From positions 1 through 62,864 of the IMG/VR virus record IMGVR_UViG_2645728048_000034: a stretch of 62,864 nt of DNA. The stretch is one strand, 5' to 3'. Made by a program: the position numbers and the translations under genes. Shown here one piece after another: positions 735 to 62,864 of this stretch. Position 1 is the first letter of the stretch. The number at the start of each line of letters is the position of its first letter. The stretch comes from a virus (taxonomy: Duplodnaviria; Heunggongvirae; Uroviricota; Caudoviricetes). Under the pieces are notes generated by a model. The model made no database searches, was not told where the DNA came from, and saw nothing but the letters and a program-made list of their open reading frames with translations.

Positions 735-1811
735 TCAGAGTAGTAAGTACGTTTTTTCTCTCTCATCAAGATACATTTTTGTTGTCTTCTCCGATGTGTG
801 GCCAAGTAGACGCTGAGCAAATTCTTCTCCACATGTTTCTTTGTACAATCGTCCAGCCAGACTTCTGATCTCGTGAAAAGTTGGTGGGTTTTCACTGAAC
901 TGGATACCTGTTAATTTTCTGGCTGCGACAAATTTTTTTGTCAGGCCATCCGGGTGAATGCTGCCGTCAGGGCTGTTTTTTCTAATCCCGGCACTGATTA
1001 GATAATCTCCCCGGCTTACCAGGCGGCACTGTTCAACTACTGTACCAAGCCGTAGACCAGCGACAGGAAGGCTGAGTGACAGGGGGATAGCAATCATCAT
1101 TCCTGTCTTAATTTGCCTGATGTGGAGACGATCATCATAAATATCACTAAAGCGCATATTCGTTATGTCTTCGCGACGTTGTCCTGTTACAAGGGCTAAA
1201 TCCATAGCTAATGGGAACCATGCCGGAAGTTGATCTGCTGCCTCCCTGATGCAGTTGTATGTCTTTAGTTTCAGTCGTTCTCTTGTAACTACTATTTTCG
1301 GTGCTCTTGTTGGCGTTACTGGATTTTGAGATATACGTCCATCAACAATGGCCTCACGAAACATATCAGACAACACAGAACGCATTGATCCTGCCATTGT
1401 GTTTTTCCCTCCTTCAATCCACAAATCAAGAAACTCGGCAATATGGCGAGTGGTTATTTCTGTCAGTAAAATTTCCCCCAATTTTTCTTTTATTGTCTCC
1501 AGTTGATTTACCCGAATTTTATAAGTATTTCTGGACACTTTTCTCCTTATAAGAATCGTTTTGTAACGTTCAATCCAGTCTGCCATAGTAAATGAGTCGA
1601 ACCCTTTAAGCTTTTCAATTAAGGCAGCAGGAGAGTAGTTTTTGTATATATAATGATTTGCTTCAATTGCCTGCGCTACTGCATCTCTTCTTGAAATTTT
1701 ACCTAGTGTAAATTCTTCTTTCGTCAGAGGGTTGCGCCAGTAATATGCTTTGTCCCTCCTTCGATATGTTAAGTTTTTAGGCAAATTGGGATCGTATTTT
1801 TTCCGCTGCAT
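735..1811 (-). CDS. int: Tyrosine recombinase (lambda-family integrase)
   Basis: 358 aa; R...HxxR...Y catalytic signature ([22 protein letters not shown]); first prophage gene next to chromosome. Confidence 0.85.
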
Positions 1812-12372: not shown

Positions 12373-12373
12373 T

Positions 12374-35419: not shown

Positions 35420-36145
35420 GTGAGCAGGCTTGCGATAACCACAATCGTATTTTCTCTTTTTTTAACTTCATGTAGTTGGGATCCTAATGGTGCTAAAGCG
35501 CAGGAAAAATGGCTATCCCAAAAAAATGAAGAAAAACAAGCGTACGATAAGCAAGTTGAGGAGAGCCAGAAAAGCAGGCTTCAAATACAGCGCGAAGAAA
35601 AGTCTCAATTTGAAGTTTCACATCCAGAGGTTATCGTTGCTGGTGTTGGGAACGAGCTTAAAAGTAAGGGTGCAGAATCTTTGCGAGATGCGTACAACAG
35701 CATTCCATTCGTAACTCGTTATCCGGGAACCACGGACCCTAACAAAGTTTATACCTATGTCGGTGACTACAAATTAAATTTGCAACTGGTTAACACATCT
35801 GTGCTTTCTCAGATCTCAGATTGCAAACGCATTTCAGCGTATGCCGATGTTGATATTAATCGTACTTGCTTCAATCAAATTGGAAATGATTTGAGTTTGT
35901 TTGCATCTGTAATTAAAGACAAAAATATTACTGGAATTGCCAAAAAAGCAGCTCTACGAGATTCAACTTACGGAACCAAAATTGATTTTGGTCATGCTGC
36001 GCGTTTAGCAAAAATGCATGCCACTTTATGCCAAAAGCAGGGCGGTAAAGGATTTGTCAAAATGTCGACTGTAGCTGTGCCTTGCGGCTCTTCAGGCGAT
36101 GTAATTAACTATCGAAGCGCCGGTAAGATGGGGCTTATAAACTGA
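35420..36145 (+). CDS. Lipoprotein (moron) within tail module
   Basis: Signal peptide plus lipobox LFLTSC; AT-rich codons; own terminator downstream. Confidence 0.6.
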   Translation: MSRLAITTIVFSLFLTSCSWDPNGAKAQEKWLSQKNEEKQAYDKQVEESQKSRLQIQREEKSQFEVSHPEVIVAGVGNELKSKGAESLRDAYNSIPFVTRYPGTTDPNKVYTYVGDYKLNLQLVNTSVLSQISDCKRISAYADVDINRTCFNQIGNDLSLFASVIKDKNITGIAKKAALRDSTYGTKIDFGHAARLAKMHATLCQKQGGKGFVKMSTVAVPCGSSGDVINYRSAGKMGLIN

Positions 36146-36210: not shown

Positions 36211-36963
36211 ATGGCAGTATCTGACCAGACCCGCTGCGGCGACCTTGCCGAAACATTCAAATCTGAACGGGAAACAACAAAGAACCAGATCCGTGTCGCC
36301 TTGCCTGGCATTATTCAGTCATTCGATCCTGATGCGGTTACGGCAGTTGTGCAGCCTGCTATACGTTCGGTTGAAAAGGATAATGACGGCAACCGCATTA
36401 CCCAAAATTACCCATTGCTGGTGGATGTGCCAGTGGTATTCCCGCGCGGAGGAGGCTGTACGTTGACTTTTCCGGTAAAAGCCAGGGATGAGTGTCTTGT
36501 CGTTTTTGCCGATCGTTGTATTGATTTCTGGTGGCAGAACGGCGGGATACAGGAGCCTGTTGATGACAGAATGCATGATTTATCGGATGCGTTTTGTATT
36601 GTCGGTCCCCAGTCGCAGGCGAGGAAGATTAGCGGTATTAATACCAGTGCCACACAGTTGCGTAGTGACGACGGCAGCACCTATTTTGAGCTTAATCCTG
36701 ACACCAGGAAAATTAAAATTGTCGCTCCGGGTGGTCTTGATGTGGTTGCCCCTCTGGCTGATTTTTCTGAGAAAGTAACCATTCATGGCCTGTTAACCTG
36801 GATGGGTGGCATGGTGGGGTCTGTTGTTTCTGGTGTGGCTTCAAAAATCACTGGTGCTGTTGAGTTCTTGGGGAGCGTTAAGGCTAACGGCAAGTCAATC
36901 GATGATACGCACACTCATGGCGGTGTTCAGCGCGGTGGAAGCAATACCGATGGGGTAAACTGA
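36211..36963 (+). CDS. Baseplate spike/assembly protein V-like
   Basis: 250 aa; position before W-like and J-like genes. Confidence 0.5.
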   Translation: MAVSDQTRCGDLAETFKSERETTKNQIRVALPGIIQSFDPDAVTAVVQPAIRSVEKDNDGNRITQNYPLLVDVPVVFPRGGGCTLTFPVKARDECLVVFADRCIDFWWQNGGIQEPVDDRMHDLSDAFCIVGPQSQARKISGINTSATQLRSDDGSTYFELNPDTRKIKIVAPGGLDVVAPLADFSEKVTIHGLLTWMGGMVGSVVSGVASKITGAVEFLGSVKANGKSIDDTHTHGGVQRGGSNTDGVN

Positions 36964-37316
36964 TGCGATACAGACGTGAAGACGCCGATGGCGATTACAC
37001 CTTTGGCAGCGGTGATGACACCTGGCTGATTAACTCACCGGAGGCCGTGGCGCAGGCGGTAAAAACGCGATTCGAATTGTGGTATGGGCAATGGTTTCTC
37101 GACACCACCGAAGGGACTCCGTGGATCCAGTCCGTGCTCGGAAAGCAGAAGCCGGAAACCTACAACCTGGCGATCCGTAAGCGCATCCTCGAAACGCGGG
37201 GCGTTAAATCAATCCTCTCTTTCAATACGACAGTGGATACCACGACCCGACGTGTCATGTTTTCCGCTGAAATCGACACTCTTTATGGAATAACGACTGT
37301 TACATCGGAGGCGTAA
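36963..37316 (+). CDS. Baseplate protein W/gp25-like
   Basis: 117 aa; ATGA overlap with previous gene. Confidence 0.55.
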   Translation: MRYRREDADGDYTFGSGDDTWLINSPEAVAQAVKTRFELWYGQWFLDTTEGTPWIQSVLGKQKPETYNLAIRKRILETRGVKSILSFNTTVDTTTRRVMFSAEIDTLYGITTVTSEA

Positions 37317-38515
37317 TGGCTCTGAACCTTGATTCTCTCGGTTTATCTGCAAAGGTAACCGCGGAGGGGATCAGTGCGCCTGATTATCAGACGATACTCA
37401 GCACCCTGATTAGCTATTTTCAGCAGATTTATGGCAGTGATGCCTACCTCGAACCGGACAGCAAAGACGGCCAGATGGTGGCTCTGATGGCGCTGGCGAT
37501 TCATGATGCCAATAATATGGCGATAACTGTCTACAACTGTTTTTCACCGGCAACCGGCTATGGGGCTGCACTGACCAGTAACGTGAAAATAAATGGTATT
37601 TCACGTAAAGGCGCGACGAACTCTACGGTTGATTTGCTTCTTGCAGGAACTGCCGGAACAACCATCATTAATGGCAGCGTGAAAGACAGTAATAATGTGA
37701 TATGGCGTTTGCCTGCTTCAGTAGTGGTCGGCGTGGATGGTACAGTGATGGCGACCGCAACATGTTCCGTCAGTGGTGCAGTGGCGGCGCTGGCTGGAAC
37801 TATCACTGAAATTAATACGCCAACCCGTGGCTGGGTTTCGGTAACTAATCCTGCTGCGGCTACTGTGGGCACTCCGGCAGAAACTGACGCGGAGTTACGT
37901 ATCCGTCAGTCGCAAAGTGTTGCGTTGCCATCAATAACCCCATTTGAAGCACTGGATGGTGCTGTTTCTAATGTTACCGGTGTAACCCGCCACAAACTCT
38001 ATGAAAACGATACTGGTTCGGAGGACGGTAACGGGTTACCGCCACACTCTGTTGCTGTAATTGTGGATGGCGGTGATGTGACGGATATTGCTCAGGCTAT
38101 CAGAGGGAATAAAGGCCAGGGGACAGCCACTCACGGTACAACATCCGTTACGGTTCCGGATAAATACGGCAATCCCCATGTAATCAAATTCTCGCGTTCC
38201 AGTGATGTGCCTGTTTATGCCCGGATTAAATTAAAAGTTTTTACGGGTTATACCTCACAGATAGGGCAGCAGATCCAGCAGGCTATTTCCGACTATATCA
38301 ATAGTCTGATGATTGGTGATTCGGTCCTTTTAAGTCGCATTTACTCACCGGCGAATCTTGGCGTGGTGAGTGGCGGGAATGCACGCTATTACGATATTCA
38401 GGAACTGACGATTGGGAAATCCCCGGGGGCTTTGTCGTCATCAAACATTGATATCAGATACAACGAATCTGCGTCCTGTACCCCGGAAAATATCGTTATA
38501 ACGGTGGAGTCATGA
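37316..38515 (+). CDS. Baseplate J-like protein
   Basis: 399 aa; position and size. Confidence 0.65.
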   Translation: MALNLDSLGLSAKVTAEGISAPDYQTILSTLISYFQQIYGSDAYLEPDSKDGQMVALMALAIHDANNMAITVYNCFSPATGYGAALTSNVKINGISRKGATNSTVDLLLAGTAGTTIINGSVKDSNNVIWRLPASVVVGVDGTVMATATCSVSGAVAALAGTITEINTPTRGWVSVTNPAAATVGTPAETDAELRIRQSQSVALPSITPFEALDGAVSNVTGVTRHKLYENDTGSEDGNGLPPHSVAVIVDGGDVTDIAQAIRGNKGQGTATHGTTSVTVPDKYGNPHVIKFSRSSDVPVYARIKLKVFTGYTSQIGQQIQQAISDYINSLMIGDSVLLSRIYSPANLGVVSGGNARYYDIQELTIGKSPGALSSSNIDIRYNESASCTPENIVITVES

Positions 38516-39192
38516 GCAAATACACCGAACTAATCACGAACTACCACGCCACTAAACCTAAATTTCTTGCGCATGTTGATCTGATGACCCGGCCGCTTAT
38601 TGATGTTGCGGCTGCCACCAGAGGGCTGATTACTGCATTTGATATTGACTCTGCGGTTGGTGTGCAACTTGACATTCTGGGATTGTGGATCGGACGTAGC
38701 CGTGTTGTCAGCCAGCCTATCTCAGGTGTCTATTTCAGCTGGGATACCGACGGGCTTGGATATGATCAGGGGGTATGGCAGGGACCATACGATCCTGATT
38801 CCGGATACATGTACCTCAGCGATGAAACTTATCGTGTCATTCTTAAAGCGAAGATTGCGATTAATAACTGGGATGGACGGAATGATTCTCTTCCGGCAAT
38901 TCTTGACGCTGCAACAGCAGGATCCGGGCTGCGAATGCAGATAGTCGATAACCAGGACATGACGATATCGGTCTGGGTCTTTCCTGATACTGATATTTCA
39001 GATGTATCGCGTGAGTTAATTGCGGCAATTAAACAGGGGTATCTCACAGTAAAAGCCGCCGGGGTATGGGCGGGTGGCATTGAAACACCTTCGGTGGAAA
39101 CCCCATCGGAAGGCTCAAAATTTTTTGGTTTTGATATGGATAACGAATTCATCAGTGGTTTTGATGTAGGAGCATGGGGAGTATTACTCTGA
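38512..39192 (+). CDS. Tail protein I-like (baseplate wedge)
   Basis: 226 aa following J-like. Confidence 0.5.
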
Positions 39193-40067
39193 TGGCGAAA
39201 AATGACTTTAAAGCGTTTGCAACGGATCGAAATGCCAATGTTATGTCGCAGGAGGAATGGGAAGCGTTGCCTGCGCTTTTATCCGGATTTACAGCAGGGA
39301 AAGCATCCAGTGCGCAGGTGAACAAAGCCATTCGACAGGCCAGCTTTATTGCTGCAGCTCTGGCCCAGTTTGTAAGTGACAAAACGCAACGGGATGTGCT
39401 TGATAATGGTGATCTGCCCGGTTTTGTTGAATTGCTTGGATCGGGGTTTGCTGTTGAATACCTGAGCCGCAAAAATCCGTTTGGCGATATCAAATCGGAC
39501 GGCACAGTGAAAACGGCTCTCGAAAACCTTGGTTTGGGAGAAGGCTCTGCATTACCGGTTGGGGTGCCTGTTCCGTGGCCTTCAGCCACTCCGCCAACAG
39601 GCTGGCTGAAATGCAATGGTGCGGCTTTTTCTGCTGAAGAATACCCGGAACTGGCAAAGGCTTACCCGACCAATAAATTGCCTGATTTACGCGGTGAATT
39701 TATTCGTGGCTGGGATGATGGACGTGGAGTGGATGCGGGGCGAGCCTTGCTAAGTCTTCAGGATGACTCTTTTGAAGCTCACAGGCATGAGTCCTTTTTT
39801 TACGCGGGTATTTCACGCAATGAAATACCATTAAAAAATCTTCCAAGTTCAGACGAGATGCTGACTTTAAGTTCTACAACTAATGCCTTGTCCCCGGACG
39901 GTATTGATGCCACTAATTCGTTAATTGGTAATGATGATTACAACTGTCTGATTGAAGGAAATAAAAATAACAAACGAACAGCGACGGGGTTGAGTACCAG
40001 TATTGTCGGTGCAGCAGAGACACGCCCACGTAATATTTCATTTAATTACATTGTGAGGGCTGCATGA
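39174..40067 (+). CDS. Tail fibre protein (tail-collar domain)
   Basis: 297 aa; collar-type motif [34 protein letters not shown]. Confidence 0.65.
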
Positions 40068-40669
40068 TGTATAATGCCATCTTGAATAGTAAATTTATTG
40101 CCACAAAGGCAGGAGAGATTACCGTTTATAACTATGACAGTGAGACACGGGAGTATATTTCTGCATCAACTGAATATCTTGCTGTGGGTGTCGGTATCCC
40201 TGCATATTCCTGTTTAGATGCTCCTGGCACACATAAGGCGGGTTATGCAATCTGCCGTTCGGCAGATTTAAACTCATGGGAATATGTGTCAGACCATCGC
40301 GGTGAAATCATCTATAGCACCGAAACAGGAGAATCGAAAGAAATCACAGCTCCGGGTGATTATCCTGAAAATACAACCACTATCGCCCCGTTAACGCCAT
40401 ACGATGAATGGGATGGTGAGAAATGGGTAACAGATACTGTGGCACAGCATAGCGCCGCAGTAGGCGCGGCAGAAGCACAGCGTCAGTCACTGATTGATAC
40501 TGCAATGGCTTCCATTAGTCTGATTCAGCTGAAATTGCAGGCCGGACGGAATCTGACGCAGGCAGAAACCGCCCGACTTAACGCTGCGCTGGATTACATT
40601 GACGCGGTGACGGCAACAGATACGAGCACCGCGCCGGATGTCATCTGGCCTGAACTGCCGGAGGCGTAG
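40064..40669 (+). CDS. Tail fibre assembly protein (Tfa)
   Basis: 201 aa; conserved Tfa C-terminus [24 protein letters not shown]. Confidence 0.65.
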
Positions 40670-41075
40670 GCCATTCAATATCTGGAGCACTGGAGGTATC
40701 AACCAGTTCCAGTGCGTCCAGATAATCCAGCCACAAATTATATTGCGCCAGTTCCTCACCTTTCAGACGACCAATAGCCGCTTTACCAGGCCATTGCTTG
40801 GTATTCATATATTCGTTGGACTGATTAATCAATTGCTGTTTTTTCAATTCGGCTGCGGCAATCTGTTCCTCATGCGTTGGTGGTGGAATTTCAGACCATG
40901 CAGGAAAACCATTTTCCCCAGCGATACGGATTTTTCCTTTCGGCGGTAATCCGGAAAACTCAATATACACCTGCTCATCAACTTCAACAGCATCATCTGG
41001 CCATGAATTTACATTGATGTAGTCATCCTTAAGCGCAGGATTCACAAAAATATTTAAAGATGGACTAAAAAACAC
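40641..41075 (-). CDS. G: P2 G-like tail fibre assembly protein
   Basis: Tfa C-terminus [21 protein letters not shown]; follows H; 3' end overlaps the + strand tfa by 29 nt. Confidence 0.7.
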   Translation of the reverse strand: MFFSPSLNIFVNPALKDDYINVNSWPDDAVEVDEQVYIEFSGLPPKGKIRIAGENGFPAWSEIPPPTHEEQIAAAELKKQQLINQSNEYMNTKQWPGKAAIGRLKGEELAQYNLWLDYLDALELVDTSSAPDIEWPTPPAVQAR

Positions 41076-41076
41076 A

Positions 41077-42252
41077 TCACCCTCCTATAGCAACATAACA
41101 GCCCGATACAGGATTTGCGGCAGTCACTACGCTGGAAAAACCACGAAAGCCGCTTTTTGTGATTGCGGAAGCAGATAGTATTCCGGCACCCGAAGGTGTA
41201 TGCCCCACGTGGCTGGCAACCATCACGTAGCACGCCGACGGAAAAGCGAAAGGGAAATTGTTTAAATATCCCGCATCATCCCCCAGACTTCCCCCAAACT
41301 GCCCCACTCCCCACTGGATAATAAGTGGTCTCCGAACGCCAGAAATAATTAATGGAATTGCTACATACCCATTCACCAACATAGCGCCGGTTGTTGCGCC
41401 AGCCAGAGCCAATTCCCCCAAACCAAGGTATGCGAGAAGACCGGCAACATCCTTTCCACTCAAATGAGTCAGCGTCTCATCCAGTGGCTGCTTACCTGAC
41501 AGCGCATTGTTAATGGTGGTGCTGAATTTCGGGTCATTGTTAATGGCCGCGGCAATTTCTTTCAGTGTGTCCAGTGTGGCTGGCGCACCGTTAATCAGAG
41601 CGGTAATAGCGGCCTGAACAAACGCAGTGGTCGCAATCCGCGTGGTGTTATTTCCTGCGGCAGGCGTCGGCGCTTTTGGTTCTCCGGTAAATGTCGGATT
41701 ATGTTTCTGCGCATACTGGGTATGAGGATCCTGTGCGGCAATGTGGTTCCTCATCTGGTCATCCACATACAGCTTTAATTCCAGGACTTCATCATCCACG
41801 TATTTACGGGTCGCCAGTACCACCGACGGGTCGATTTTCAGCGTGATGGCTTCGGTATTCGTGACAACCAGAATCATGCGGATAGTCTGGGTACGACCAC
41901 TGCCTTCCTGCAACTGCGGTTTGTACGTTTCCGGGCAGTTCGCCACCGCAATGAGTACGCCTTCATCATCATAAAGCCCAATCTCACGGATCCAGAATCC
42001 GCCCTCGTTCTCAGGGATGATTTGCTCCGCAATAATCTGGCTCTGGTTGTTCGGGTCAACACTCAGAAGATTCAGCGGCGCGATGCGTTTCTGGTTAATC
42101 AGTTTTGTCTGTGCCGGGTCTGGGGTCGGCAAGACACCATTCGCATCACCAACGGCCATTTGCGTCAGATTCAGCTTACTGCCGAGCATCGTCGCGTTAG
42201 CCAGCCGTGCTGCGCCCTGATTAGTCAGAATGGCGTAGTATTTCACTGTCAT
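41077..42252 (-). CDS. H: P2 H-like tail fibre protein
   Basis: Conserved N-terminus MTVKYYAILTNQGAARLANA...MAVGDANG; shorter than P2 H. Confidence 0.7.
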   Translation of the reverse strand: MTVKYYAILTNQGAARLANATMLGSKLNLTQMAVGDANGVLPTPDPAQTKLINQKRIAPLNLLSVDPNNQSQIIAEQIIPENEGGFWIREIGLYDDEGVLIAVANCPETYKPQLQEGSGRTQTIRMILVVTNTEAITLKIDPSVVLATRKYVDDEVLELKLYVDDQMRNHIAAQDPHTQYAQKHNPTFTGEPKAPTPAAGNNTTRIATTAFVQAAITALINGAPATLDTLKEIAAAINNDPKFSTTINNALSGKQPLDETLTHLSGKDVAGLLAYLGLGELALAGATTGAMLVNGYVAIPLIISGVRRPLIIQWGVGQFGGSLGDDAGYLNNFPFAFPSACYVMVASHVGHTPSGAGILSASAITKSGFRGFSSVVTAANPVSGCYVAIGG

Positions 42253-42860
42253 GCGTTTACTCTCAGGTTATCAATTAAATGAATGGCCGAGGCCGGGAAA
42301 TAATCCCCTCCGACAATAATGGCCTCCGGGGTGTAGGGATAAACCGTCATGGCGTCGCCGTGATAGCATCCCGCACCGGCAAAAATGTTGCCGGTTGTAC
42401 TTAAGCTGATAGCCAGTCCCGTCAGATGGCGGCTTGCCGGTTTTGCATCAGCAACGAGGCGCTCCAGCTCCTGATACATTTCCTCGGTAATACCCTGCTC
42501 AAGCACGCCAACAACGATGCGGAACGTCCCCGGCTCCTCGTTGAGCTGCCACCACTCCCTCACCTCAATCAGATAGCCGAGCGGCTCCACCACACGCCGG
42601 ATTGCGCCTATAGTGCCCTTATGGCAGTGAATGAAATACGCATCGCGGATAACAGCGCGTTTTGTCGCTTCCGGCCACTTATCATCCCAGCGGTCAACCG
42701 AAAATGACCACGCCAGCCACGGCAGCAGATTTGCCGGGCAGGTGTCCGGGTTCCACAGCTCACGAATACTGACCGGCGTTTTTTCAATTTCCGCACAGGC
42801 TTTTGCGGCAGCGACTTCAAGCGGTGATGAGCCGGTCGGCAGCAGTCGCGAATCACTCAT
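42249..42860 (-). CDS. I: P2 I-like baseplate protein
   Basis: N-terminus MSDSRLLPTGSSPLEVAAAKA; P2 gene order. Confidence 0.75.
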   Translation of the reverse strand: MSDSRLLPTGSSPLEVAAAKACAEIEKTPVSIRELWNPDTCPANLLPWLAWSFSVDRWDDKWPEATKRAVIRDAYFIHCHKGTIGAIRRVVEPLGYLIEVREWWQLNEEPGTFRIVVGVLEQGITEEMYQELERLVADAKPASRHLTGLAISLSTTGNIFAGAGCYHGDAMTVYPYTPEAIIVGGDYFPASAIHLIDNLRVNA

Positions 42861-43761
42861 CCGAGCCTCCGGTCACGACGCTGTATTCGGTACAGAAAGA
42901 CGCCTGAGTATTGTTGAGCACGATGTCGGCCAGCGGTGCAGCCAGTTCGACACGCTGCACGCCTTCCACATGCAAAGCGGCATAAATGGCAGACAGTCGG
43001 ATGTCGCGCCCCAGCCGGTGCTGTGCCGTGATATACGCTTCCAGTTTTTTCACGGCGGCAGCGCGAATGGGTTCGCTTTCGGGGCCAGGATAAAGGTAAA
43101 GCGTGGCATTTATCTGGTATTCAACGATGACGGCAGACTGCACGGTCACACGGTCGGCCACCGGTCTGACGTCCTCACCATTAAGGGCGTTGCGCACCAC
43201 CGCCAGCAGGTCTTCGGATGCCACACCGTTATTTTCACGTGACAGCACAGAGATGGTGACGCAGGCCGGAGACGGACTGGTGACAGAAATATCCGCGACA
43301 CGCCCGTCGGCACTGCGACCATGATACTGATAGGCTCCCACCGACCCGGCGACGCTTAAGCCCTCAAACGCCTGCTGAATACGCAGACGATAATCGGTGT
43401 CAGACTCCATCACTGCCGGTGTCGGCGGGATGGTCGAATCATCTGCCGGGGTGATAATCAGGCGCGTGGTGTTGTAATTGGCACCAATCACATCAAGGTC
43501 ATTACCGGCGGCACAGGCCAGCATTACCGCCCGTGCGGCCTCATTCACACGCTGACGCCAGATAAGCTCACGATAAGCATTTTCCTCCAGCAGTTTGACG
43601 AGAGGCTCGGATTCCAGCGTCAGGGTACGGGCAACCGCCTCCTGCTGGTCTTCCGGGTAAAGGGAAATCAGTGTCGCCTTGCGTTCGGCAAGAATGGTTT
43701 CAAAGTCCAGCTCCTCGACCACATCCGGTGCGGGTAGCTGGTTCAGGTCGATAATCGGCAT
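42853..43761 (-). CDS. J: P2 J-like baseplate protein
   Basis: 302 aa, same as P2 J. Confidence 0.8.
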   Translation of the reverse strand: MPIIDLNQLPAPDVVEELDFETILAERKATLISLYPEDQQEAVARTLTLESEPLVKLLEENAYRELIWRQRVNEAARAVMLACAAGNDLDVIGANYNTTRLIITPADDSTIPPTPAVMESDTDYRLRIQQAFEGLSVAGSVGAYQYHGRSADGRVADISVTSPSPACVTISVLSRENNGVASEDLLAVVRNALNGEDVRPVADRVTVQSAVIVEYQINATLYLYPGPESEPIRAAAVKKLEAYITAQHRLGRDIRLSAIYAALHVEGVQRVELAAPLADIVLNNTQASFCTEYSVVTGGSDE

Positions 43762-43765
43762 GGTT

Positions 43766-44113
43766 TCAACTCACAGGGATGGTTAACGAAAGTGGCTGGC
43801 CGGTGTCGTTGTGCTGGCCGGTTAACGTGACCGTCATTCGCCCGTCAAAACTGCGCTCAGTGGTGACGGATGACAGGGTGACGCGGGGTTCCCATTTCAG
43901 CACCGCCATGTAACAGGCGACCTTAATCTGCAACTCAAGCGCCGGGGTCTGCGGCTGGTCAATCATTGACGCCAGCAATGAGCCGTAATCACGACGCATC
44001 ACCCGTGAGCCGACCGGCGTGCGCAGGATATCGCCGATACTCTGGCTGATATGCTCAAGGTCAGTGACAGTCAGGCCATCACTGCGATTCATTCCAAGAT
44101 AACGCACTGTCAT
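43766..44113 (-). CDS. W: P2 W-like baseplate protein (gp25-like)
   Basis: 115 aa, same as P2 W. Confidence 0.8.
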   Translation of the reverse strand: MTVRYLGMNRSDGLTVTDLEHISQSIGDILRTPVGSRVMRRDYGSLLASMIDQPQTPALELQIKVACYMAVLKWEPRVTLSSVTTERSFDGRMTVTLTGQHNDTGQPLSLTIPVS

Positions 44114-44745
44114 AGAGGACTCCCGGTTGTGCCGCCGCTGTCGCCGGGGTGTTTATGGGTATGCAGTACCTTACCGTTTGATGAGAGTTCACCGCCGGTA
44201 TGTTTAATGTTGCCGCGCATCGTCCCGCCCTTCTGCACTTCCAGCGTGCCGGTAATCAGTCTGTTGGTGCAGACCACCTCCGGGGTGTCCAGGGTGATGC
44301 GGGTTGACGCTTTCACCATGACCACCGGCACCGTGGCAGTAACAGAATCAGAAGCCGTCACGCTGGCCGTTTTAATTCCGCTTACCGTGAGTGCACTGGT
44401 TTCGGGTTCATACTCAATCACCGCCCCGTCAGGGAAACGGATATGCAGGGCATCCGCCGACGTAGACGGCGCGGGGTTATCGCCGGAATAAATCCCCGGC
44501 AGAACGAACGCCGTGTCGAGTTCACCGCCCACGGCCAGAATCAGCACCTGTTCCCCCACGGAAGGTGCCCACCATGTGCGCGAACGTCCGGCGCGATGGG
44601 TCAGCCACTGAAGCCAGTCGGTGCACATGCCGCCGGTCTGCACACGGCAGCGACCGGCGTTAAGGTCGGTTTCGACGATAATGCCGGTGCGGATCATGTT
44701 GCGCAGTGCGCGCGCGAGTTCCTGAATATTTGCGAGAGTGTTCAT
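44110..44745 (-). CDS. V: P2 V-like baseplate spike
   Basis: 211 aa, same as P2 V. Confidence 0.8.
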   Translation of the reverse strand: MNTLANIQELARALRNMIRTGIIVETDLNAGRCRVQTGGMCTDWLQWLTHRAGRSRTWWAPSVGEQVLILAVGGELDTAFVLPGIYSGDNPAPSTSADALHIRFPDGAVIEYEPETSALTVSGIKTASVTASDSVTATVPVVMVKASTRITLDTPEVVCTNRLITGTLEVQKGGTMRGNIKHTGGELSSNGKVLHTHKHPGDSGGTTGSPL

Positions 44746-44811
44746 AACGGGAAGGATGCCGCCGGGTCATACCGGCGGCAATGTGCCGATGAGGTGTCGG
44801 GAATGGCACAA

Positions 44812-45264
44812 CTAACGGTCGAGGTGAGCCAGGATAATCTCTTCAATCATCTGCACATCCTCACCGGTAAAGCCGAGCAGAGGACGCGCCGGATAATCAA
44901 TTTTCTTACCGTCTTTCCGGTTTTCTTCCGACAGACCGAACTGATGCACACTGGCGATTTTCGGCGACTTCCCGCCGTAAAACTCCATTGATGCCTGCTC
45001 CGGGCTGGCGCGGATATGCAAAAAACGACTGGTGATAAGTTTCGCAAACATTTTTCGCTTAACGCGACCGGTCTTTTTTCTGGCGCTCTGCTGCTGGCGT
45101 GGTGCGTAGGGTGTGCCGTCCGGGGCTTTCTGTGCCATCACCCGGCGCTGCTGACTCTGACGCAGACGTTTCGCCAGTTCGGCGCTCAGTCGCCGACGCC
45201 CTGACGGTGACAGCGACTCAATCAGTCCGGTCAGCCGGTCTTCAAAACGCTTAAACTCATTCAT
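44812..45264 (-). CDS. S: P2 S-like tail completion protein
   Basis: 150 aa, same as P2 S. Confidence 0.75.
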   Translation of the reverse strand: MNEFKRFEDRLTGLIESLSPSGRRRLSAELAKRLRQSQQRRVMAQKAPDGTPYAPRQQQSARKKTGRVKRKMFAKLITSRFLHIRASPEQASMEFYGGKSPKIASVHQFGLSEENRKDGKKIDYPARPLLGFTGEDVQMIEEIILAHLDR

Positions 45265-45724
45265 CCCACTTGCTCACCAGTTCACCATTGATATAAAGCT
45301 CCATCGGGCGGGTGACCGGCTCCGGCGGCGGGGGTTCCGGGATATTCTTCACATGCAGCGCGCCATCCACCTCACTGACCAGCGTGCGCTCGGTCAGCAT
45401 CAGGCTGATGCTGATATCAAAGCTGCTGTCATTGTTGATGTCCGCATAAAACGTGAAGCCCTTTTTCTGGCCTTCGTCGGTGGTCATGATGTCGGGCTGA
45501 TTTTCCCGCAGCCACGCCAGCACCGGCACGATGAGCAGGTCAAAATCACCGGTAAAGTCGGTCACAATCACATTGAGCGTGTAACGCTTTTCGAATGACA
45601 GCGACGTCGCCAGCGTGGAGGCAATACTCCCGTTATCCACGAATATCCGCAACATATCGGGGTTAGTTTTCAGCACCGTGACGGCATCAGTCAGCGCCCT
45701 GCGCAGGCTGTCGGGTTTGAGCAT
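45257..45724 (-). CDS. R: P2 R-like tail completion protein
   Basis: 155 aa, same as P2 R. Confidence 0.75.
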   Translation of the reverse strand: MLKPDSLRRALTDAVTVLKTNPDMLRIFVDNGSIASTLATSLSFEKRYTLNVIVTDFTGDFDLLIVPVLAWLRENQPDIMTTDEGQKKGFTFYADINNDSSFDISISLMLTERTLVSEVDGALHVKNIPEPPPPEPVTRPMELYINGELVSKWDE

Positions 45725-45977
45725 CGTTTTCGTCCTGACAGTGTTTAATCATTTTTACCTGGCTGGCACAGCGTGCCAGCGCGTTCTCAAGCTGCCGGAT
45801 ATCGGCACTTAAATCGCCGTTCGTCTGCGGGTCACTGCCCGGCATCGGGCAAAGGCTCACTTTCGGGCAGGCGTTGGCGACAATCACTGGCGTCAGTGCA
45901 GGCGGGGCGCTGGTGCAACCGGCGCACAGCATCAGGCAGGCCAGCGCCGTACCAGCGGCGAAAATCTTCGTTTTCAT
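45687..45977 (-). CDS. lysC: P2 LysC-like o-spanin lipoprotein
   Basis: 96 aa from internal Met; lipobox LCAGCTS; overlaps lysB in +1 frame. Confidence 0.55.
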   Translation of the reverse strand: MKTKIFAAGTALACLMLCAGCTSAPPALTPVIVANACPKVSLCPMPGSDPQTNGDLSADIRQLENALARCASQVKMIKHCQDENDAQTRQPAQGAD

Positions 45978-46257
45978 TAAGTAACCTCGTGATGGTTTTC
46001 TCGCGCTGTGCTTCACGCTTCGCGGCGTTCTCCAGTTCCTGACGCAGTGCCACCTGCGCCAGCTCGTTTTTGTCTGCCCTGGTGATGGCAACATGAAGCT
46101 GATTTTGCAGCATGGTGATGGTCGTCTGCTGCCCGCTGGCGACGTTGTTCGCCCTGTCCAGCGAGGCGCGCAGGCTGGCGTTTTCATGCTTCACCAGAAA
46201 CAGCCCCGCCACCGCCAGCGATAACAGCACAACCATCACAATCATCAGCTTTGACAT
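45832..46257 (-). CDS. lysB: P2 LysB-like i-spanin
   Basis: 141 aa with N-terminal TM helix. Confidence 0.65.
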   Translation of the reverse strand: MSKLMIVMVVLLSLAVAGLFLVKHENASLRASLDRANNVASGQQTTITMLQNQLHVAITRADKNELAQVALRQELENAAKREAQREKTITRLLNENEDFRRWYGAGLPDAVRRLHQRPACTDASDCRQRLPESEPLPDAGQ

Positions 46258-46670
46258 GGTTCCCGCCCCTCAAAACGCTGACGGCAGGCCGTACGTATCA
46301 GCCGGAAGAACACCGACGCCACGAGATAAATCAGCGCGGTAAAAATCCACCCGGCAGCGACCAGCGAGATAAACGTCGCCACCATCACCACCAGAGCCAC
46401 CGCCCGTCTGCGCCACGGCACCGGCTGCAAAAACAGCGACGTGACAATCTTCACGGCCAGCGATTCCGGCGGAAGCTCCCGCCCGTAGCGTTCCAGCACA
46501 TACTCAGTGGCATACACGCCGACACCACCGGCAACCACACAGATAACCGTCGCCAGAATCGCCCAGGCGGCGACAAAACTGACGGCCACGCTCTGCGGGT
46601 AAATCAGGGACAGTGCCAGCATCAGCGCCAGCGACACGTTCAGCATCAGTGAAAGGGATAATTTCTTCAT
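46245..46670 (-). CDS. lysA: P2 LysA-like membrane protein
   Basis: 141 aa, multi-TM. Confidence 0.6.
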   Translation of the reverse strand: MKKLSLSLMLNVSLALMLALSLIYPQSVAVSFVAAWAILATVICVVAGGVGVYATEYVLERYGRELPPESLAVKIVTSLFLQPVPWRRRAVALVVMVATFISLVAAGWIFTALIYLVASVFFRLIRTACRQRFEGREPCQS

Positions 46671-46684
46671 GGTGTTTACTCCGT

Positions 46685-47182
46685 TTAAGCCGGTACGCCG
46701 CCAGCGGTACGCCAGACGGTGACCAGTTTTTCCAGTGAATGCTCACGCTGACCGTAACCGGCACCCGGCAGGGACGCCCAGATATTGCGACAGCGTGAAA
46801 TGGCTCGCTCAATGCGTCCCGCCCGGATGTCATCCAGTGCACCGCGTTCGCGGATCAACTGAATGGCAAGTCTGTCCTGTGACAACGGACTGAAATCCGG
46901 CAGGGCAAGCTGTTTGCGGTAATGCGGCCAGAACAGGTAAAGCTGCTGATAGCGACCGGAGGCCGTGGATTTTTCACCGCGACGGTTAAACACCTTCGCC
47001 GGTCGGCCATGTGCGAACGGGTGGTCACTGTAGTCGGTGAAAATTTCCGGCTTCCCGTCCAGTCCGGTGACTATCACGTCATAGCCCCGGTTTTTCGTCA
47101 GCGGATGATTTGCCGTCCCTTCGGACACGGCCAGCATGTCGAGAAAGGCGGCGATATTCTGATGCGTGTTAATTACCGGCAT
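46685..47182 (-). CDS. K: P2 K-like endolysin (lambda R-type lysozyme)
   Basis: 165 aa; GYDVIV...TDYSDHP...SGRYQ motifs. Confidence 0.85.
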   Translation of the reverse strand: MPVINTHQNIAAFLDMLAVSEGTANHPLTKNRGYDVIVTGLDGKPEIFTDYSDHPFAHGRPAKVFNRRGEKSTASGRYQQLYLFWPHYRKQLALPDFSPLSQDRLAIQLIRERGALDDIRAGRIERAISRCRNIWASLPGAGYGQREHSLEKLVTVWRTAGGVPA

Positions 47183-47463
47183 TACTGTTTCCCCCTGCCC
47201 TTAAAGCGGCGCTGAATGGCAATCTCAATCACCTGATAACCGGCGATACCCAGCATGGAGCCAATGCCGCACACCGCAGGCAGTGACAGGTCAGGAAACT
47301 GCACCAGAACAACACCGGCAACCATCGAGACAAAACCACCGAGCAACATGCGCCCGATAAACAGACGTGGGGTGATGGGTTCACCACCGGCAAGCACCTT
47401 GCCGACAACAATCAGCACCCCAATCATGAAAAGCGACAGGACGCTTTTTTCTTCTGCTGTCAT
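47182..47463 (-). CDS. Y: P2 Y-like holin
   Basis: 93 aa, TM helices. Confidence 0.7.
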   Translation of the reverse strand: MTAEEKSVLSLFMIGVLIVVGKVLAGGEPITPRLFIGRMLLGGFVSMVAGVVLVQFPDLSLPAVCGIGSMLGIAGYQVIEIAIQRRFKGRGKQ

Positions 47464-47466
47464 GCG

Positions 47467-47670
47467 TTACTCCCACAGATTGACAGTTTCAGCCACGGGC
47501 GCGGTCTGAACGTCGGGCAGTTCGACGGCGGTGCCGTGTGGCAGCACCGCACCCAGTTCAGCCAGTCCCGGATTTGCGGCGAGCACGGTCTCAACCACGC
47601 CCTCAGTGCGCCCGTAATACCGGACACAAATGGCGTCGAGCGTGTCGCCCTGTAGCGCAAAGGTCTTCAT
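47467..47670 (-). CDS. X: P2 X-like tail protein
   Basis: 67 aa from internal Met MKTFALQGDTLDAI. Confidence 0.6.
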   Translation of the reverse strand: MKTFALQGDTLDAICVRYYGRTEGVVETVLAANPGLAELGAVLPHGTAVELPDVQTAPVAETVNLWE

Positions 47671-48179
47671 CAGATTTGACTCACGATGCAGCGCGGCTTG
47701 TCCTGGATACGCGCCACCGCCCAGCGCATATCCCGCCACAGCTCATCAATGGTGCTGTCAATGCTGTCGGCCTTCTTGTCGCCTTTCGCACTGGCATCCA
47801 CGCCGCGGTAACGCTCATAAAGCGACGCGGTCGCCATCGCACACACGGCGCGCTCGTAGTAAAAAACTTTGATGCTTTCACCGTCGATGTCGTCCGCCGG
47901 AACGTCCGCCAGACGCGTAAAACCGGCGGCAATTTTCTGTTCGCGGTACTCGTACAGCTCCGCATTCGTCTCCGCCATGCCTGACTTGATGGCCTCACGC
48001 AGACGGGCGGGGGCGACGGTCTGCTCAAGGCGCATACGTTCCCGGACGCGCTTCGGGTCGATATCGGGAAAAAAGAACGTGTTTTTAATCACCGGCTCGT
48101 CGCCTGCCGGTTGCGGGATGACCACCGTACCCTCACCGGACACGGGAGCCTCCTTTCGCGGAATAATCAGCGTCATCAT
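47670..48179 (-). CDS. L: P2 L-like head completion protein
   Basis: 169 aa from internal Met, same as P2 L. Confidence 0.7.
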   Translation of the reverse strand: MMTLIIPRKEAPVSGEGTVVIPQPAGDEPVIKNTFFFPDIDPKRVRERMRLEQTVAPARLREAIKSGMAETNAELYEYREQKIAAGFTRLADVPADDIDGESIKVFYYERAVCAMATASLYERYRGVDASAKGDKKADSIDSTIDELWRDMRWAVARIQDKPRCIVSQI

Positions 48180-48278
48180 GACTACCTCTGAAAAGTCGGG
48201 CGGTGGACGCCGGTACAGCGTCAGGTGATTCACCCTCCCTGACCGGCGTGCCGCCCTGGCGCGGGGCGCATTCGGTTG

Positions 48279-49022
48279 TTAACTGGCTTTCTTTTTCGGG
48301 CGTCCACGTTTTGCCGGTGTCACGCTCCGGGTCTTACGCGGGGTACGGGTGGCCGCTTTGGGCTGCGGCTCCGGCTTCGGTTTCAGCTCCCGCTCCAGTC
48401 GTTCAATCTCTTTTTTGACACCTGCCTGACAGTCGAGCTGTGTCGCACGTTGCAGGTGAGCCAGCGCACCGGCGGCATCACCACCATCACGCAGAAACAG
48501 ACCGGTGATTTTGTGCAGCTTTGCGCGCACTTCATCAGGCATGTCAGCCGTGGCGGTCAGTTCAAGGGTCTCCGTCAGCAGGCGGGTATCCACAGACTCA
48601 CCGGCAGCGTGAGCACGCATGGCCGCGAGCGCCACCTCCTCGGTGAACATGTACGGCGGGGTGCGGCGGTGTTTACCCGGCATGGTCAGACCGTACTTCA
48701 GGGCATAACGGGCAATCTCCAGCGCACCGGCAATATCGCCGGTATCCAGACGCCACAGCATGACCGTCATCAGAATGTCATCCTGTGCACCTTTGCCCTG
48801 CTCCAGCACGCCGTTCACCCACGGCAACCAGAACGGCAGCAGTTCGCGTTTTTTCGCGGCCTTCAGCTCTTTTGAATAAATCGCTTTCAGTGTGCGCTGG
48901 TCTGCGGCGAGCTTAACCAGCATCTGCTCATAGACAGTTGCATGTCGCAGCGGGGCGGCTTCCCGCTGCGCGGTCATCGCTGCCGAGACCCGCATCATGT
49001 GGCGCTGTGCGGGACTCGTCAT
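48279..49022 (-). CDS. M: P2 M-like terminase small (endonuclease) subunit
   Basis: 247 aa, same as P2 M. Confidence 0.8.
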   Translation of the reverse strand: MTSPAQRHMMRVSAAMTAQREAAPLRHATVYEQMLVKLAADQRTLKAIYSKELKAAKKRELLPFWLPWVNGVLEQGKGAQDDILMTVMLWRLDTGDIAGALEIARYALKYGLTMPGKHRRTPPYMFTEEVALAAMRAHAAGESVDTRLLTETLELTATADMPDEVRAKLHKITGLFLRDGGDAAGALAHLQRATQLDCQAGVKKEIERLERELKPKPEPQPKAATRTPRKTRSVTPAKRGRPKKKAS

Positions 49023-49025
49023 CGG

Positions 49026-50099: not shown

Positions 50100-50157
50100 A
50101 GTTTTTCCTGAAATTAAGGGTTAATCGTGAAGGTTTTCCCGGACTGACTGACACCGG

Positions 50158-51012: not shown

Positions 51013-51185
51013 TGTCAGGAGTCCTGAATAGTGATTAGAGGAGTCACATGTCGGCATCAGTTTCCCGACGATGCGCATCCTCCGCCATCAGTCCCGGATG
51101 GCTTATCACTGACACAACAGCACCTTAGCGAATCGCGGGGTGCGACTCAGTAGCCTTGCCGTGTATTCATCACGGCGAGGTATTC

Positions 51186-53992: not shown

Positions 53993-53996
53993 ACAT

Positions 53997-54020
53997 CGCC
54001 GCCTGCGGGCGGCTTTTTTA
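53997..54020 (+). terminator. Rho-independent terminator after Q
   Basis: gccgcc-tgc-gggcggc followed by tttttt. Confidence 0.6.
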
Positions 54021-54161
54021 CACCCCGTCATCACGCCCTCACACGCTCACCACCGCACAAAACACCCCGCAGACACACCAACGCCCCGGCGCACAATCTA
54101 AACGCCATCAAGACGCGCTCAGACGCTGAAAAAATAAAATCAGCACCACCGCCAGCGCGCA

Positions 54162-54180
54162 GTGCTTTCCCCGCCTCGCC
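54162..54180 (-). other. P2-type cos cohesive-end sequence
   Basis: + strand gtgctttccccgcctcgcc is the reverse complement of the P2 19-nt cos sequence as recalled. Confidence 0.6.
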
Positions 54181-54363
54181 CGCCCGCTTCATGGGGCGGT
54201 TTTAATGCAACCTCGTATTAAAGGGGACACCATAGCCCATCAAACCTCAGACTTCGCCCCTAGCTAACGTTTATGAATGCAATGTAATGCAACTTAATGC
54301 AAGTTATGGTAATGATAATTCTGCGTTAACAATTAAACTAATGTACCTGTAAGAGGATAAAAA

Positions 54364-56847: not shown

Positions 56848-56856
56848 ACAGTAAAA

Positions 56857-56885
56857 GACCACCTCCTAAGGAGGTGGTCCTTGTA
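56857..56885 (+). terminator. Stem-loop terminator after helicase-nuclease gene
   Basis: Perfect 10-bp stem gaccacctcc-taa-ggaggtggtc. Confidence 0.5.
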
Positions 56886-59853: not shown

Positions 59854-59855
59854 TA

Positions 59856-60379: not shown

Positions 60380-60442
60380 GACTTTCTCCAGGCAAAAAGA
60401 AGCCCCGCACGATTAAGTGCGTTAAAAACTCTGGTTAATTAC

Positions 60443-61883: not shown

Positions 61884-62864
61884 ATGGCAATTAAGAAGCT
61901 CGATGATGGTCGCTATGAAGTGGACATTAGACCTCGCGGTCGCGACGGAAAACGCATCCGCAGGAAATTTGAAAGAAAAGCTGAAGCACTAGCATTTGAG
62001 CGATACACAATCGCCAATGCCAGTCAGAAAGAATGGGGAGGCCAGCGAGCAGACCGCCGAACTTTGACAGAATTACTCGACATCTGGTGGAAATACCACG
62101 GGCAAAACCACGAGCATGGGACAAAAGAGTTTAATCATCTGCTCAAAACCATCAGCGGCATAGGTGATATACCAGTGAGTCGGATGAACAAAAGGGCTTT
62201 GATGGATTATCGCTCCATGCGACTACGTGATGGCATCAGTGCTGCAACGATAAACCGCGACATGTACCGATTATCCGGCATGTTCACAAAATTAATTCAA
62301 TTGGATGAATTTTCCGGGCAACACCCAATTCACGGACTGCCGCCACTGACGGAGGCTAACCCTGAAATGACGTTCCTGGAAAAAGCAGAAATCGAAAAAC
62401 TGCTAAATGTTTTGACTGGTGATGACTTACTTGTCGCGCTTTTATGTCTGAGCACTGGAGGAAGGTGGACGGAAGTTGCCACGCTAAAACCAGCACAGAT
62501 TACAAGTTGCAGGGTTACCTTCCTGAAAACCAAAAACGGTAAAAAGCGAACAGTGCCGATTTCTGAGGAACTGGAGAAAAAAGTTAAAGAGGAGGCCAGC
62601 GCCAAATTGTTCAAGGTAGATTATGAGAAGTTTTGCGGGATTTTACGCAGAGTGAAACCTGATATACCTCCCAATCAGGCAACCCACATTCTGCGGCATA
62701 CATTCGCAAGCCATTTCATGATGAATGGGGGCAACATAATTGCACTGCAACAGATTCTGGGGCATGCGAGCATTCAGCAGACAATGACCTATGCGCACCT
62801 TGCGCCTGACTACCTGCAGAACGCCGTCGCTCTGAATCCACTAAAAGGCGGAGTGACGTTATAA
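61884..62864 (+). CDS. int: P2-type tyrosine integrase
   Basis: Starts MAIKKLDDGRYEVDIRP; ...HILRHTFASHFMMNGG...LGHASIQQTMTYAH catalytic region; stop at window end. Confidence 0.85.
   Translation: MAIKKLDDGRYEVDIRPRGRDGKRIRRKFERKAEALAFERYTIANASQKEWGGQRADRRTLTELLDIWWKYHGQNHEHGTKEFNHLLKTISGIGDIPVSRMNKRALMDYRSMRLRDGISAATINRDMYRLSGMFTKLIQLDEFSGQHPIHGLPPLTEANPEMTFLEKAEIEKLLNVLTGDDLLVALLCLSTGGRWTEVATLKPAQITSCRVTFLKTKNGKKRTVPISEELEKKVKEEASAKLFKVDYEKFCGILRRVKPDIPPNQATHILRHTFASHFMMNGGNIIALQQILGHASIQQTMTYAHLAPDYLQNAVALNPLKGGVTL

What the first reader, a model, noticed from the sequence alone, without database searches (positions are those of the whole stretch)
39174..42252. Two complete tail-fibre modules converge, with tfa 3' ends overlapping by 29 nt
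The + strand fibre/tfa of the lambdoid prophage ends at 40669; the P2-like G ends at 40641 on the other strand, so the two tfa genes overlap tail-to-tail. Both Tfa proteins share the conserved C-terminus (LDYIDA...DTSTAPD.WP). No attR, Z/fun or chromosomal DNA lies between the two phage genomes, and integrases sit at both outer ends. This looks like a rearrangement joining two prophages (inversion or deletion) or an unusual composite element.
Basis: partly seen in the sequence, partly recalled or inferred. Interest (0 to 1): 0.55.

Follow-up and report, generated by a model that had tools for sequence, protein, structure and literature searches.

The report
Invertible tail-fibre cassette; probable chimeric contig
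The two tail-fibre chaperone genes that meet tail-to-tail are the normal core of a well-known flip-flop DNA switch that phages use to change host range. The apparent fusion of two prophages around it is most likely an assembly error in a draft genome.

Summary
ORFs 39174-40067 and 40064-40669 (+) converge on 40641-41075 and 41077-42252 (-), with a 29-nt overlap.

The convergence is not a junction between two phages. It is the native interior of a Pin/Gin/Cin-type invertible tail-fibre cassette of about 1.9 kb. The cassette is bounded by two inverted 26-bp crossover sites (39517-42 and 41413-38). Single P2-like prophages, and single relatives of the left-hand prophage, carry the same tfa><tfa pair with the same 29-nt overlap, followed by a DNA invertase gene.

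The real switch between phage A DNA and P2-like DNA lies at 39524-39535, in the core of the left crossover site. Identity is 99.99% to separate relatives on either side.

The window comes from draft contig JHSN01000032.1. That contig links the yebY arc (1.92 Mb in K-12) to the cpxP arc (4.11 Mb) in direct orientation. On a syntenic chromosome this would close a 2.18-Mb circle.

None of 5,426 complete E. coli genomes has the composite. A sister assembly has a hairpin contig at the same cassette.

Verdict: a known switch plus a probable chimeric contig (about 0.8). A real recombinant is not excluded (about 0.12). Interest is low.

The parts
36211..39192 (+). Phage A baseplate genes: spike, sheath initiator, baseplate J and wedge (DUF2612).
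   Evidence: Pfam labels on the source contig. 99.99% identical to prophage A in GCA_040813075.1 (L031).
39192..39528 (+). Constant N-terminal part of the phage A tail fibre (Sc_A, about 112 codons).
   Evidence: Identity to L031 (1 mismatch in 10,220 nt) runs to 39535 and then stops.
39517..39542 (.). Left crossover site, CTCTCGAAAACC TT GGTTTGGGAGAA (12-2-12, hix/gix/cix/pix type). Encodes ..ENLGLGE..
   Evidence: One of only 2 matches to the family consensus in the window, with 0 expected by chance. Inverted repeat I1. Positions 39529-39544 equal the published e14 P-segment repeat TTGGTTTGGGAGAAGG (PMC12529663).
39531..40067 (+). Variable fibre tip X (tail Collar domain), currently fused in frame to Sc_A.
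   Evidence: PF07484. Identical, apart from one base at 40075, to the silent tip next to the invertase in the CH4804 P2-like prophage.
40064..40669 (+). TfaE-like tail-fibre assembly chaperone for tip X.
   Evidence: PF02413. Annotated as tfaE in RefSeq relatives.
40641..40669 (.). 29-nt tail-to-tail overlap of the two tfa genes.
   Evidence: The same overlap is present in all native cassettes examined.
40641..41075 (-). Tfa (gpG-like) chaperone for tip Y.
   Evidence: PF02413.
41077..41424 (-). Variable fibre tip Y (Gp53-like C domain), currently fused to the P2-like H constant part.
   Evidence: PF21882 at residues 310-390 of the 391-aa protein.
41413..41438 (.). Right crossover site, TTCCCCCAAACC AA GGTATGCGAGAA, inverted relative to the left one. 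Encodes ..AYLGLGE.. on the - strand.
41427..42252 (-). Constant N-terminal part of the P2-like fibre H.
   Evidence: PF12571 at residues 1-150. Collinear with P2-like prophages and with Peduovirus pro483.
42249..44745 (-). P2-like baseplate genes I, J, W and V.
735..1811 (-). Phage A integrase, next to yebY (1-342) and the RyeA/SdsR locus.
61884..62864 (+). P2-like integrase. In the source contig it is followed by cpxP, cpxR and cpxA.

Best explanation
Positions 39517-41438 are one Pin/Gin/Cin (Din-family) invertible tail-fibre cassette. Two inverted 26-bp crossover sites lie inside the fibre reading frames. They enclose two alternative receptor-binding tips, each with its own Tfa chaperone, arranged head-out and tail-in. 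A serine invertase flips the cassette, so a constant fibre N-terminus is fused to one tip or the other. The convergent, overlapping tfa genes are therefore native to a single phage.

In the window, this cassette is flanked on both sides by a constant fibre part. On the left is the constant part of a contractile-tailed prophage with lambda-like early genes, integrated at pphA|yebY. On the right is the constant part of a P2-like prophage integrated at cpxP|fieF. No invertase gene is present.

Most likely this double flank is not a physical molecule. The assembler of a draft genome walked from the phage A fibre gene into the P2-like cassette and out the other side. Two routes could have allowed this:
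(b') An 88-nt stretch after the crossover site is identical in both cassette types (shown for the closest phage A relative).
(a) A complete second copy of the cassette sits in phage A (inferred as an alternative).

The missing P2 genes (invertase, FI-ogr, attR) and the phage A right end (invertase remnant, attR) would then lie on other contigs.
For: Native architecture.
- P2-like prophages in CH4804 and ATCC 8739, and Peduovirus pro483, read I-H-tfa><tfa-silent tip-DNA invertase-sheath.
- Phage A relatives, including phage vB_EcoM-606R2, read wedge-fibre-tfa><tfa-silent tip-pinE-host.

Crossover sites.
- They are the only two consensus matches in 62.8 kb, with 0 expected by chance.
- In-silico inversion of 39529-41426 keeps both fibres in frame: 291 to 228 aa and 391 to 454 aa.
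- The 454-aa product is exactly the ORF found on a sister-strain contig, so the cassette flips in vivo.

Junction.
- Identity to phage A in L031 is 99.99% up to 39535. Identity to the P2-like prophage in L044 is 99.99% from 39524.
- The silent tip of L031 is identical to window 39529-39616, 88 nt.

Topology.
- The source is WGS contig JHSN01000032.1.
- Its left flank is yebY-yebZ-yobA-holE-yobB-exoX-ptrB. Its right flank is cpxP-cpxR-cpxA-yiiM-kdgT-sodA-rhaT.
- Both flanks run in descending K-12 order, from 1.923 Mb and from 4.106 Mb. The join would therefore circularise the intervening arc instead of inverting or deleting it viably.

Rarity.
- 0 of 5,426 complete E. coli genomes and 0 of 50,697 phage records span the composite.
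- The exact 291-aa fibre occurs on this one contig only.

Pipeline behaviour.
- Sister assembly JHRP01000069.1 is a hairpin: positions 8704-13176 are the reverse complement of 2375-6849, centred on the same cassette.
- CYBY01000012.1 carries a tandem artefact at the same place.
Against: No reads or other contigs of the assembly could be inspected, so the mis-join is inferred and not shown.

The junction falls exactly at the crossover-site core. That is also the signature of genuine site-specific recombination.

An 88-nt shared stretch is short for a mis-join if long k-mers or read pairs were used. The sequencing and assembly method of JHSN01 could not be established.

Synteny of the 2.18-Mb arc in this strain is assumed from K-12 and from the 6-7 kb of flanking DNA seen on each side.
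Confidence: 0.8

Rival explanations
1. The join is real. An invertase (Pin of the P2-like prophage acting in trans) or homologous recombination exchanged strands between the phage A fibre-proximal site and the P2-like invertase-proximal site. This fused the two prophages around one cassette. The chromosome stays viable because the strain carries a further large rearrangement that had placed the two prophages in inverted orientation. The reciprocal product (invertase-cassette-invertase) lies at the other inversion end.
For: The switch between backbones lies within the 12-nt core of the crossover site. Both fibre genes remain intact and in frame. Pin-type invertases act in trans on sites in other prophages (PMC12529663). 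The cassette demonstrably flips in this lineage.
Against: It needs at least two large rearrangements, because the flanks are in direct orientation. An inversion between 1.92 and 4.11 Mb would displace oriC strongly; this rests on established knowledge of replichore balance and was not tested. The structure was not seen in any of 5,426 closed genomes. The same project produced an impossible hairpin at this cassette.
Confidence: 0.12
2. The contig shows the join point of a large tandem duplication of about 2.18 Mb, or a minority recombinant subpopulation. It would arise by unequal exchange between the two cassettes on sister chromosomes. That is the only single-event product giving yebY-A|B-cpxP in direct orientation.
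For: The direct-orientation join geometry matches a duplication join.
Against: Such a duplication would include oriC, would be unstable, and would be present in few cells. An assembler would not prefer it over the native paths. There is no depth information.
Confidence: 0.04
3. One reading: each phage contributes its own complete fibre and tfa module, and the two genomes abut at 40.65 kb after a deletion or inversion.
For: Each strand carries an intact fibre ORF followed by a tfa ORF.
Against: Positions 39524-42349 match one contiguous native P2-like cassette with a single mismatch. Identity to phage A ends at 39535. The overlap at 40641-40669 is conserved inside single phages.
Confidence: 0.01

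Closest known systems
e14 P segment with PinE (E. coli K-12: stfP/tfaP/tfaE/stfE, 1,797 bp)
   Same: The repeat TTGGTTTGGGAGAAGG is identical (window 39529-39544; PMC12529663). The tfa genes are convergent, and one is tfaE-like. Inversion re-pairs fibre N-termini with alternative C-termini. PinE, PinQ and PinR all work in trans.
   Different: e14 is a defective element with pinE adjacent to the segment. In the window no invertase is adjacent, and both flanks are full tail modules of two different phages.
Mu G segment/Gin and P1 C segment/Cin (also Min of p15B)
   Same: Sc-[Sv U >< U' S'v]-invertase logic, 26-bp sites with a 2-bp core, and host-range switching (PMC4272514, PMC6906374; established knowledge).
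   Different: The fibre and chaperone sequence families differ. In Mu and P1 one side of the segment is always the invertase gene, never a second constant fibre part.
Invertible fibre cassette of P2-like prophages (Peduovirus pro483; the E2348/69 P2-like prophages shown to flip in culture)
   Same: Gene order I-H-G><G'-H'v-invertase-FI. Window 39524-42300 matches pro483 at 92.7%. Flipping in culture is documented in PMC4272514.
   Different: The window lacks the invertase and FI-ogr. Where they should be, a foreign fibre N-terminus sits.
Mis-joins at repeats and invertible segments in short-read draft assemblies
   Same: A hairpin contig (JHRP01000069.1) and a tandem duplicate (CYBY01000012.1) occur at the same cassette.
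   Different: Here the mis-join would link two loci 2.18 Mb apart, not one locus to itself.

Membership tests
Din-family (Hin/Gin/Cin/Pin) invertible tail-fibre segment | Two roughly 26-bp crossover sites (12-2-12) in inverted orientation that match the family consensus. | tested here: met
   Sites at 39517-39542 and 41413-41438, with 1 and 2 mismatches to TTCTCNNAAACCWWGGTTTNNGAGAA. Cores are TT and AA. 0 matches expected by chance.
Din-family (Hin/Gin/Cin/Pin) invertible tail-fibre segment | The sites lie in the fibre ORF at the constant/variable boundary, and both orientations give in-frame fibres. | tested here: met
   In-silico inversion gives 228-aa and 454-aa ORFs. The 454-aa ORF is identical to a called gene in a sister assembly.
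Din-family (Hin/Gin/Cin/Pin) invertible tail-fibre segment | Two alternative tip-plus-chaperone sets lie in convergent orientation inside the segment. | tested here: met
   Collar tip with a 201-aa Tfa on the + strand, and Gp53-like tip with a 144-aa Tfa on the - strand.
Din-family (Hin/Gin/Cin/Pin) invertible tail-fibre segment | An adjacent serine invertase gene, which carries the recombinational enhancer. | tested here: not met
   tblastn with both invertase types found no hit in the 62.8-kb window. The gene is present next to the cassette in all native relatives.
Din-family (Hin/Gin/Cin/Pin) invertible tail-fibre segment | Both orientations are observed in nature. | tested here: met
   Phage A relatives are found in both states (L003/L004 versus L031/L005). 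The flipped H junction occurs in JHRP01000069.1.
Complete P2-like (Peduovirus) prophage | Tail genes FI, FII, E, T, U, D plus ogr and attR lie downstream of the fibre cassette. | tested here: not met
   They are absent from the window. They are present in CH4804 and ATCC 8739.
Genuine composite or fused prophage | The same junction is found in independent or closed assemblies, and the chromosome topology is consistent. | tested here: not met
   0 of 5,426 complete genomes, 0 of 50,697 phage records, and one contig only. The flanks are in direct orientation, 2.18 Mb apart in K-12.
Genuine composite or fused prophage | Read-level support spans the whole cassette from Sc_A to H. | not testable with these tools
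   Neither the reads nor the other contigs of GCA_001265995.1 are accessible.

The most novel reading that the evidence does not exclude
The join is physical. A Pin-type invertase recombined crossover sites of two unrelated co-resident prophages and left one invertible cassette flanked by two complete tail modules. A single flip, driven in trans, would then reciprocally swap receptor-binding tips and chaperones between two different phages. Both tips would be expressed at once instead of one being silent.

A milder version: phage A recently captured the P2-like cassette by exchange at both sites, a natural form of recombinase-mediated cassette exchange. The contig then merely collapses the two copies.
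Probability: 0.12. Interest if true: 0.5.

Novelty: already known. Interest (0 to 1): 0.13.

Why it matters
As it stands, the value is practical. Convergent, overlapping tfa genes flanked by fibre fragments mark a Din-type host-range switch, not a prophage boundary. These cassettes flip in culture and are shared between phages, so they are hot spots for chimeric or hairpin contigs in draft assemblies. Prophage fusions called across them should be distrusted until long reads confirm them.

A secondary point supports an old idea: crossover sites serve as module-exchange points in tail-fibre evolution. I recall that idea from Sandmeier, Iida and Arber's work in the early 1990s and did not check it here. 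The evidence from this analysis is twofold:
- The same cassette allele (99.1% identical) sits in a P2-like backbone and in an unrelated phage A-type backbone.
- The boundary in this window falls exactly at the crossover core.

If the join were real, it would be an unusual case of one switch serving two phages.

Tried and rejected
- Exact-protein look-up with the 297-aa start (39174) found nothing. The 291-aa start (39192) found the source contig.
- Look-ups with the P2 integrase, gpB and the 827-aa helicase returned only other strains. gpA and RecE reached the contig flanks.
- Literature searches for the WGS and assembly accessions found nothing, so the sequencing and assembly method is unknown.
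- I tried to look up the closest phage A relative's own TfaE, to see whether the assembly holds a second, A-type cassette. I ran no further search on this. Only 90% cluster representatives can be looked up, and even a hit would not separate a real reciprocal product from a collapsed repeat.
- Simple deletion and simple inversion were both rejected on geometry.
- A junction at 40.65 kb was rejected on the identity profiles.
Full report
**1. What is in the sequence**

- + strand: a fibre ORF at 39174-40067 (291 aa from the ATG at 39192 that public gene calls use) and a 201-aa Tfa at 40064-40669.
- - strand: a 391-aa fibre at 41077-42252 and a 144-aa Tfa at 40641-41075.
- The two tfa genes overlap by 29 nt (40641-40669).

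Pfam gives Collar for the + fibre, Phage_tail_fib plus Gp53-like_C for the - fibre, and Caudo_TAP for both chaperones.

Upstream on the + strand lies a full contractile-tail baseplate module (36211-39192). Upstream on the - strand lie P2-like I, J, W and V (42249-44745). Integrases sit at both outer ends, and no host DNA lies between.

**2. The convergence is native to single phages**

A search of 5,426 complete E. coli genomes with 39174-42252 returned thousands of hits. Every long hit begins at query base 351, which is window 39524.

In CH4804 and ATCC 8739 the matching region is a P2-like prophage. It reads I-H-tfa><tfa-191-aa fibre fragment-recombinase-sheath...ogrK-fieF. Peduovirus pro483 has the same layout, with an annotated DNA invertase.

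Relatives of the left-hand phage ('phage A') read wedge-fibre-tfaE><tfa-gp53-like fragment-pinE-host. These include ETEC-2264, O103:H2 12009, PEC399 and phage vB_EcoM-606R2.

In each of the native relatives annotated, the annotated tfa genes overlap by the same 29 nt. This is the Sc-[Sv U >< U' S'v]-invertase architecture of the Mu G segment, the P1 C segment and the e14 P segment. P2-like prophage versions are documented to flip continuously in culture (PMC4272514).

**3. The switch itself**

One inverted repeat stands out:
- 39517-39542: CTCTCGAAAACC TT GGTTTGGGAGAA
- 41413-41438: TTCCCCCAAACC AA GGTATGCGAGAA

These are the only two matches in the window to the 12-2-12 hix/gix/cix consensus, with none expected by chance. 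Positions 39529-39544 equal the published e14 P-segment repeat (PMC12529663).

Both sites are translated as (N/Y)LGLGE in the two fibre frames. Inverting 39529-41426 in silico keeps both genes open: 291 to 228 aa and 391 to 454 aa. The 454-aa product is identical to a gene called on a sister-strain contig, so the cassette really flips in this lineage.

The window contains no invertase gene.

**4. Where the two phage backbones actually meet**

- The phage A part is 99.99% identical (1 mismatch in 10,220 nt) to a prophage at pphA|yebY in a 5.3-Mb contig of GCA_040813075.1. That identity stops at 39535.
- The P2-like part is 99.99% identical (1 mismatch in 8,729 nt) to a native P2-like prophage (CYCC01000024.1). 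That identity starts at 39524.
- Against CH4804, the whole stretch 39529-42349 has one mismatch.

The switch therefore lies in the 12-nt core of the left crossover site, not at 40.65 kb. The X tip and the tfaE-like gene on the + strand are the normally silent half of the P2-like cassette.

The closest phage A relative has its own cassette, only 90-92% identical to this one. However, the first 88 nt of its silent tip after the core are identical to window 39529-39616. Its pinE is frameshifted.

**5. Source and topology**

The window is 100% identical to WGS contig JHSN01000032.1 (119,987 bp, GCA_001265995.1).
- Left of the window the contig continues yebY-yebZ-yobA-holE-yobB-exoX-ptrB-yebE-yebF.
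- Right of it, the contig continues cpxP-cpxR-cpxA-yiiM-kdgT-sodA-rhaT.

In K-12, yebY is at 1,923,365 and cpxP at 4,105,820. Both flanks run in descending K-12 order in the window.

The native sites are pphA|yebY for phage A and cpxP|fieF for the P2-like phage. The contig therefore joins the constant-side arm of phage A to the constant-side arm of the P2-like phage across one cassette.

If the yebY...cpxP arc is intact, this closes it into a 2.18-Mb circle. No single deletion or inversion yields this on one viable chromosome. The only one-step product is a huge tandem-duplication join. Otherwise a second, unrelated large rearrangement is required. This step is inference from geometry plus assumed synteny.

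**6. Independent indications of an assembly artefact**

(a) No complete E. coli genome and no phage record carries the composite. The exact 291-aa fibre is on this one contig only.

(b) A sister assembly carries the same P2-like prophage (exact gpA and H proteins; the JH** accession prefix suggests the same project, unverified). It contains JHRP01000069.1, a hairpin contig in which 8704-13176 is the reverse complement of 2375-6849. P2 late genes therefore appear on both sides of the cassette. That structure is expected when an assembler enters an invertible segment by one orientation's junction and leaves by the other's.

(c) CYBY01000012.1 shows a tandem artefact at the phage A cassette.

A mis-join in JHSN needs only reads for the Sc_A-tip X junction, which any flipped phage A cassette supplies, plus the 88-nt identity. 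Alternatively it needs a full second copy of the cassette in phage A.

**7. What cannot be decided here**

I could not see the reads or the other contigs of the assembly. I also could not establish how it was sequenced.

A junction exactly at the crossover core is also what true site-specific recombination would leave. Pin-type enzymes do act in trans across prophages (PMC12529663).

My estimates are:

| Explanation | Probability |
|---|---|
| Chimeric contig | about 0.8 |
| Real multi-step recombinant | about 0.12 |
| Duplication join or subpopulation | about 0.04 |

**8. Comparison and novelty**

The cassette meets every defining feature of a Din-family invertible fibre segment except the adjacent invertase gene, and that gene is present in all native relatives. 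The switch is therefore already known. The only unusual element is the double constant flank, which is probably not real.

One modestly interesting by-product concerns cassette exchange. The ATCC 8739 P2-like cassette and the ETEC-2264 phage A cassette are 99.1% identical over 1,483 nt, although the backbones are unrelated. This fits cassette exchange bounded by the crossover sites.

**9. Verdict**

The biology is a known host-range switch, and the fusion is probably an artefact. Interest is 0.13.

Noticed in passing
L045 (JHRP01000069.1, GCA_001265535.1) 2375-6849 versus 8704-13176: This sister-strain contig is a hairpin. P2 late genes appear in inverted duplicate on both sides of the same invertible cassette (99.93% over 4,475 nt). 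It is almost certainly an assembly artefact of a flipping segment.
   Followed up: yes
L034 (CYBY01000012.1) 8001-16820: Baseplate J, the wedge gene, the fibre and the cassette of a phage A-type prophage appear twice in tandem, once for each cassette orientation. This is another draft-assembly artefact at this kind of locus.
   Followed up: partly
L002 9001-10483 versus L003 9275-10755: The cassette of a P2-like prophage (ATCC 8739) and that of an unrelated phage A-type prophage (ETEC-2264) are 99.1% identical, and they even share the TfaE protein WP_001386003.1. Cassettes evidently move between phage lineages, with boundaries at the crossover sites.
   Followed up: partly
L031 12109-12659; L034 16267-16817; also L004 and L006: The pinE gene of the closest phage A relatives is frameshifted or carries an internal stop. 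Their cassettes would depend on an invertase supplied in trans, for example by a co-resident P2-like prophage.
   Followed up: partly
window 54364-56847 (+): An 827-aa DEAD/ResIII helicase-like gene occupies the variable cargo slot between the P2 portal gene and gpA. Relatives carry quite different cargo there, including retron Ec48, cytolethal distending toxin genes, HEPN/GmrSD and AAA_15 ATPases. This looks like a defence or cargo hotspot.
   Followed up: no
window 42350-51252 versus 39529-42349 and 53900-62864: Relative to CH4804, the P2-like prophage is mosaic. The cassette plus the H N-terminus, and the early region, are essentially identical (1 mismatch, and 100%). The late genes in between are only about 98.7% identical.
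   Followed up: no
window 463-607, 2169-2347, 7087-7138, 14966-15115, 17320-17520: Rfam gathering-score hits: RyeA/SdsR directly between yebY and the phage A integrase (at the attachment site), RalA, DicF, sok, isrK, and C4 with its targets. No tRNA genes were found.
   Followed up: no
window 35420-36145 (+); 13776-15124 (-): A 241-aa ORF with a lipoprotein-like N-terminus (..LFLTSCSW..) sits among the baseplate genes and has no Pfam match. That slot holds different genes in relatives. Two opposite-strand ORFs in phage A, near the sok RNA, also have no Pfam match.
   Followed up: no
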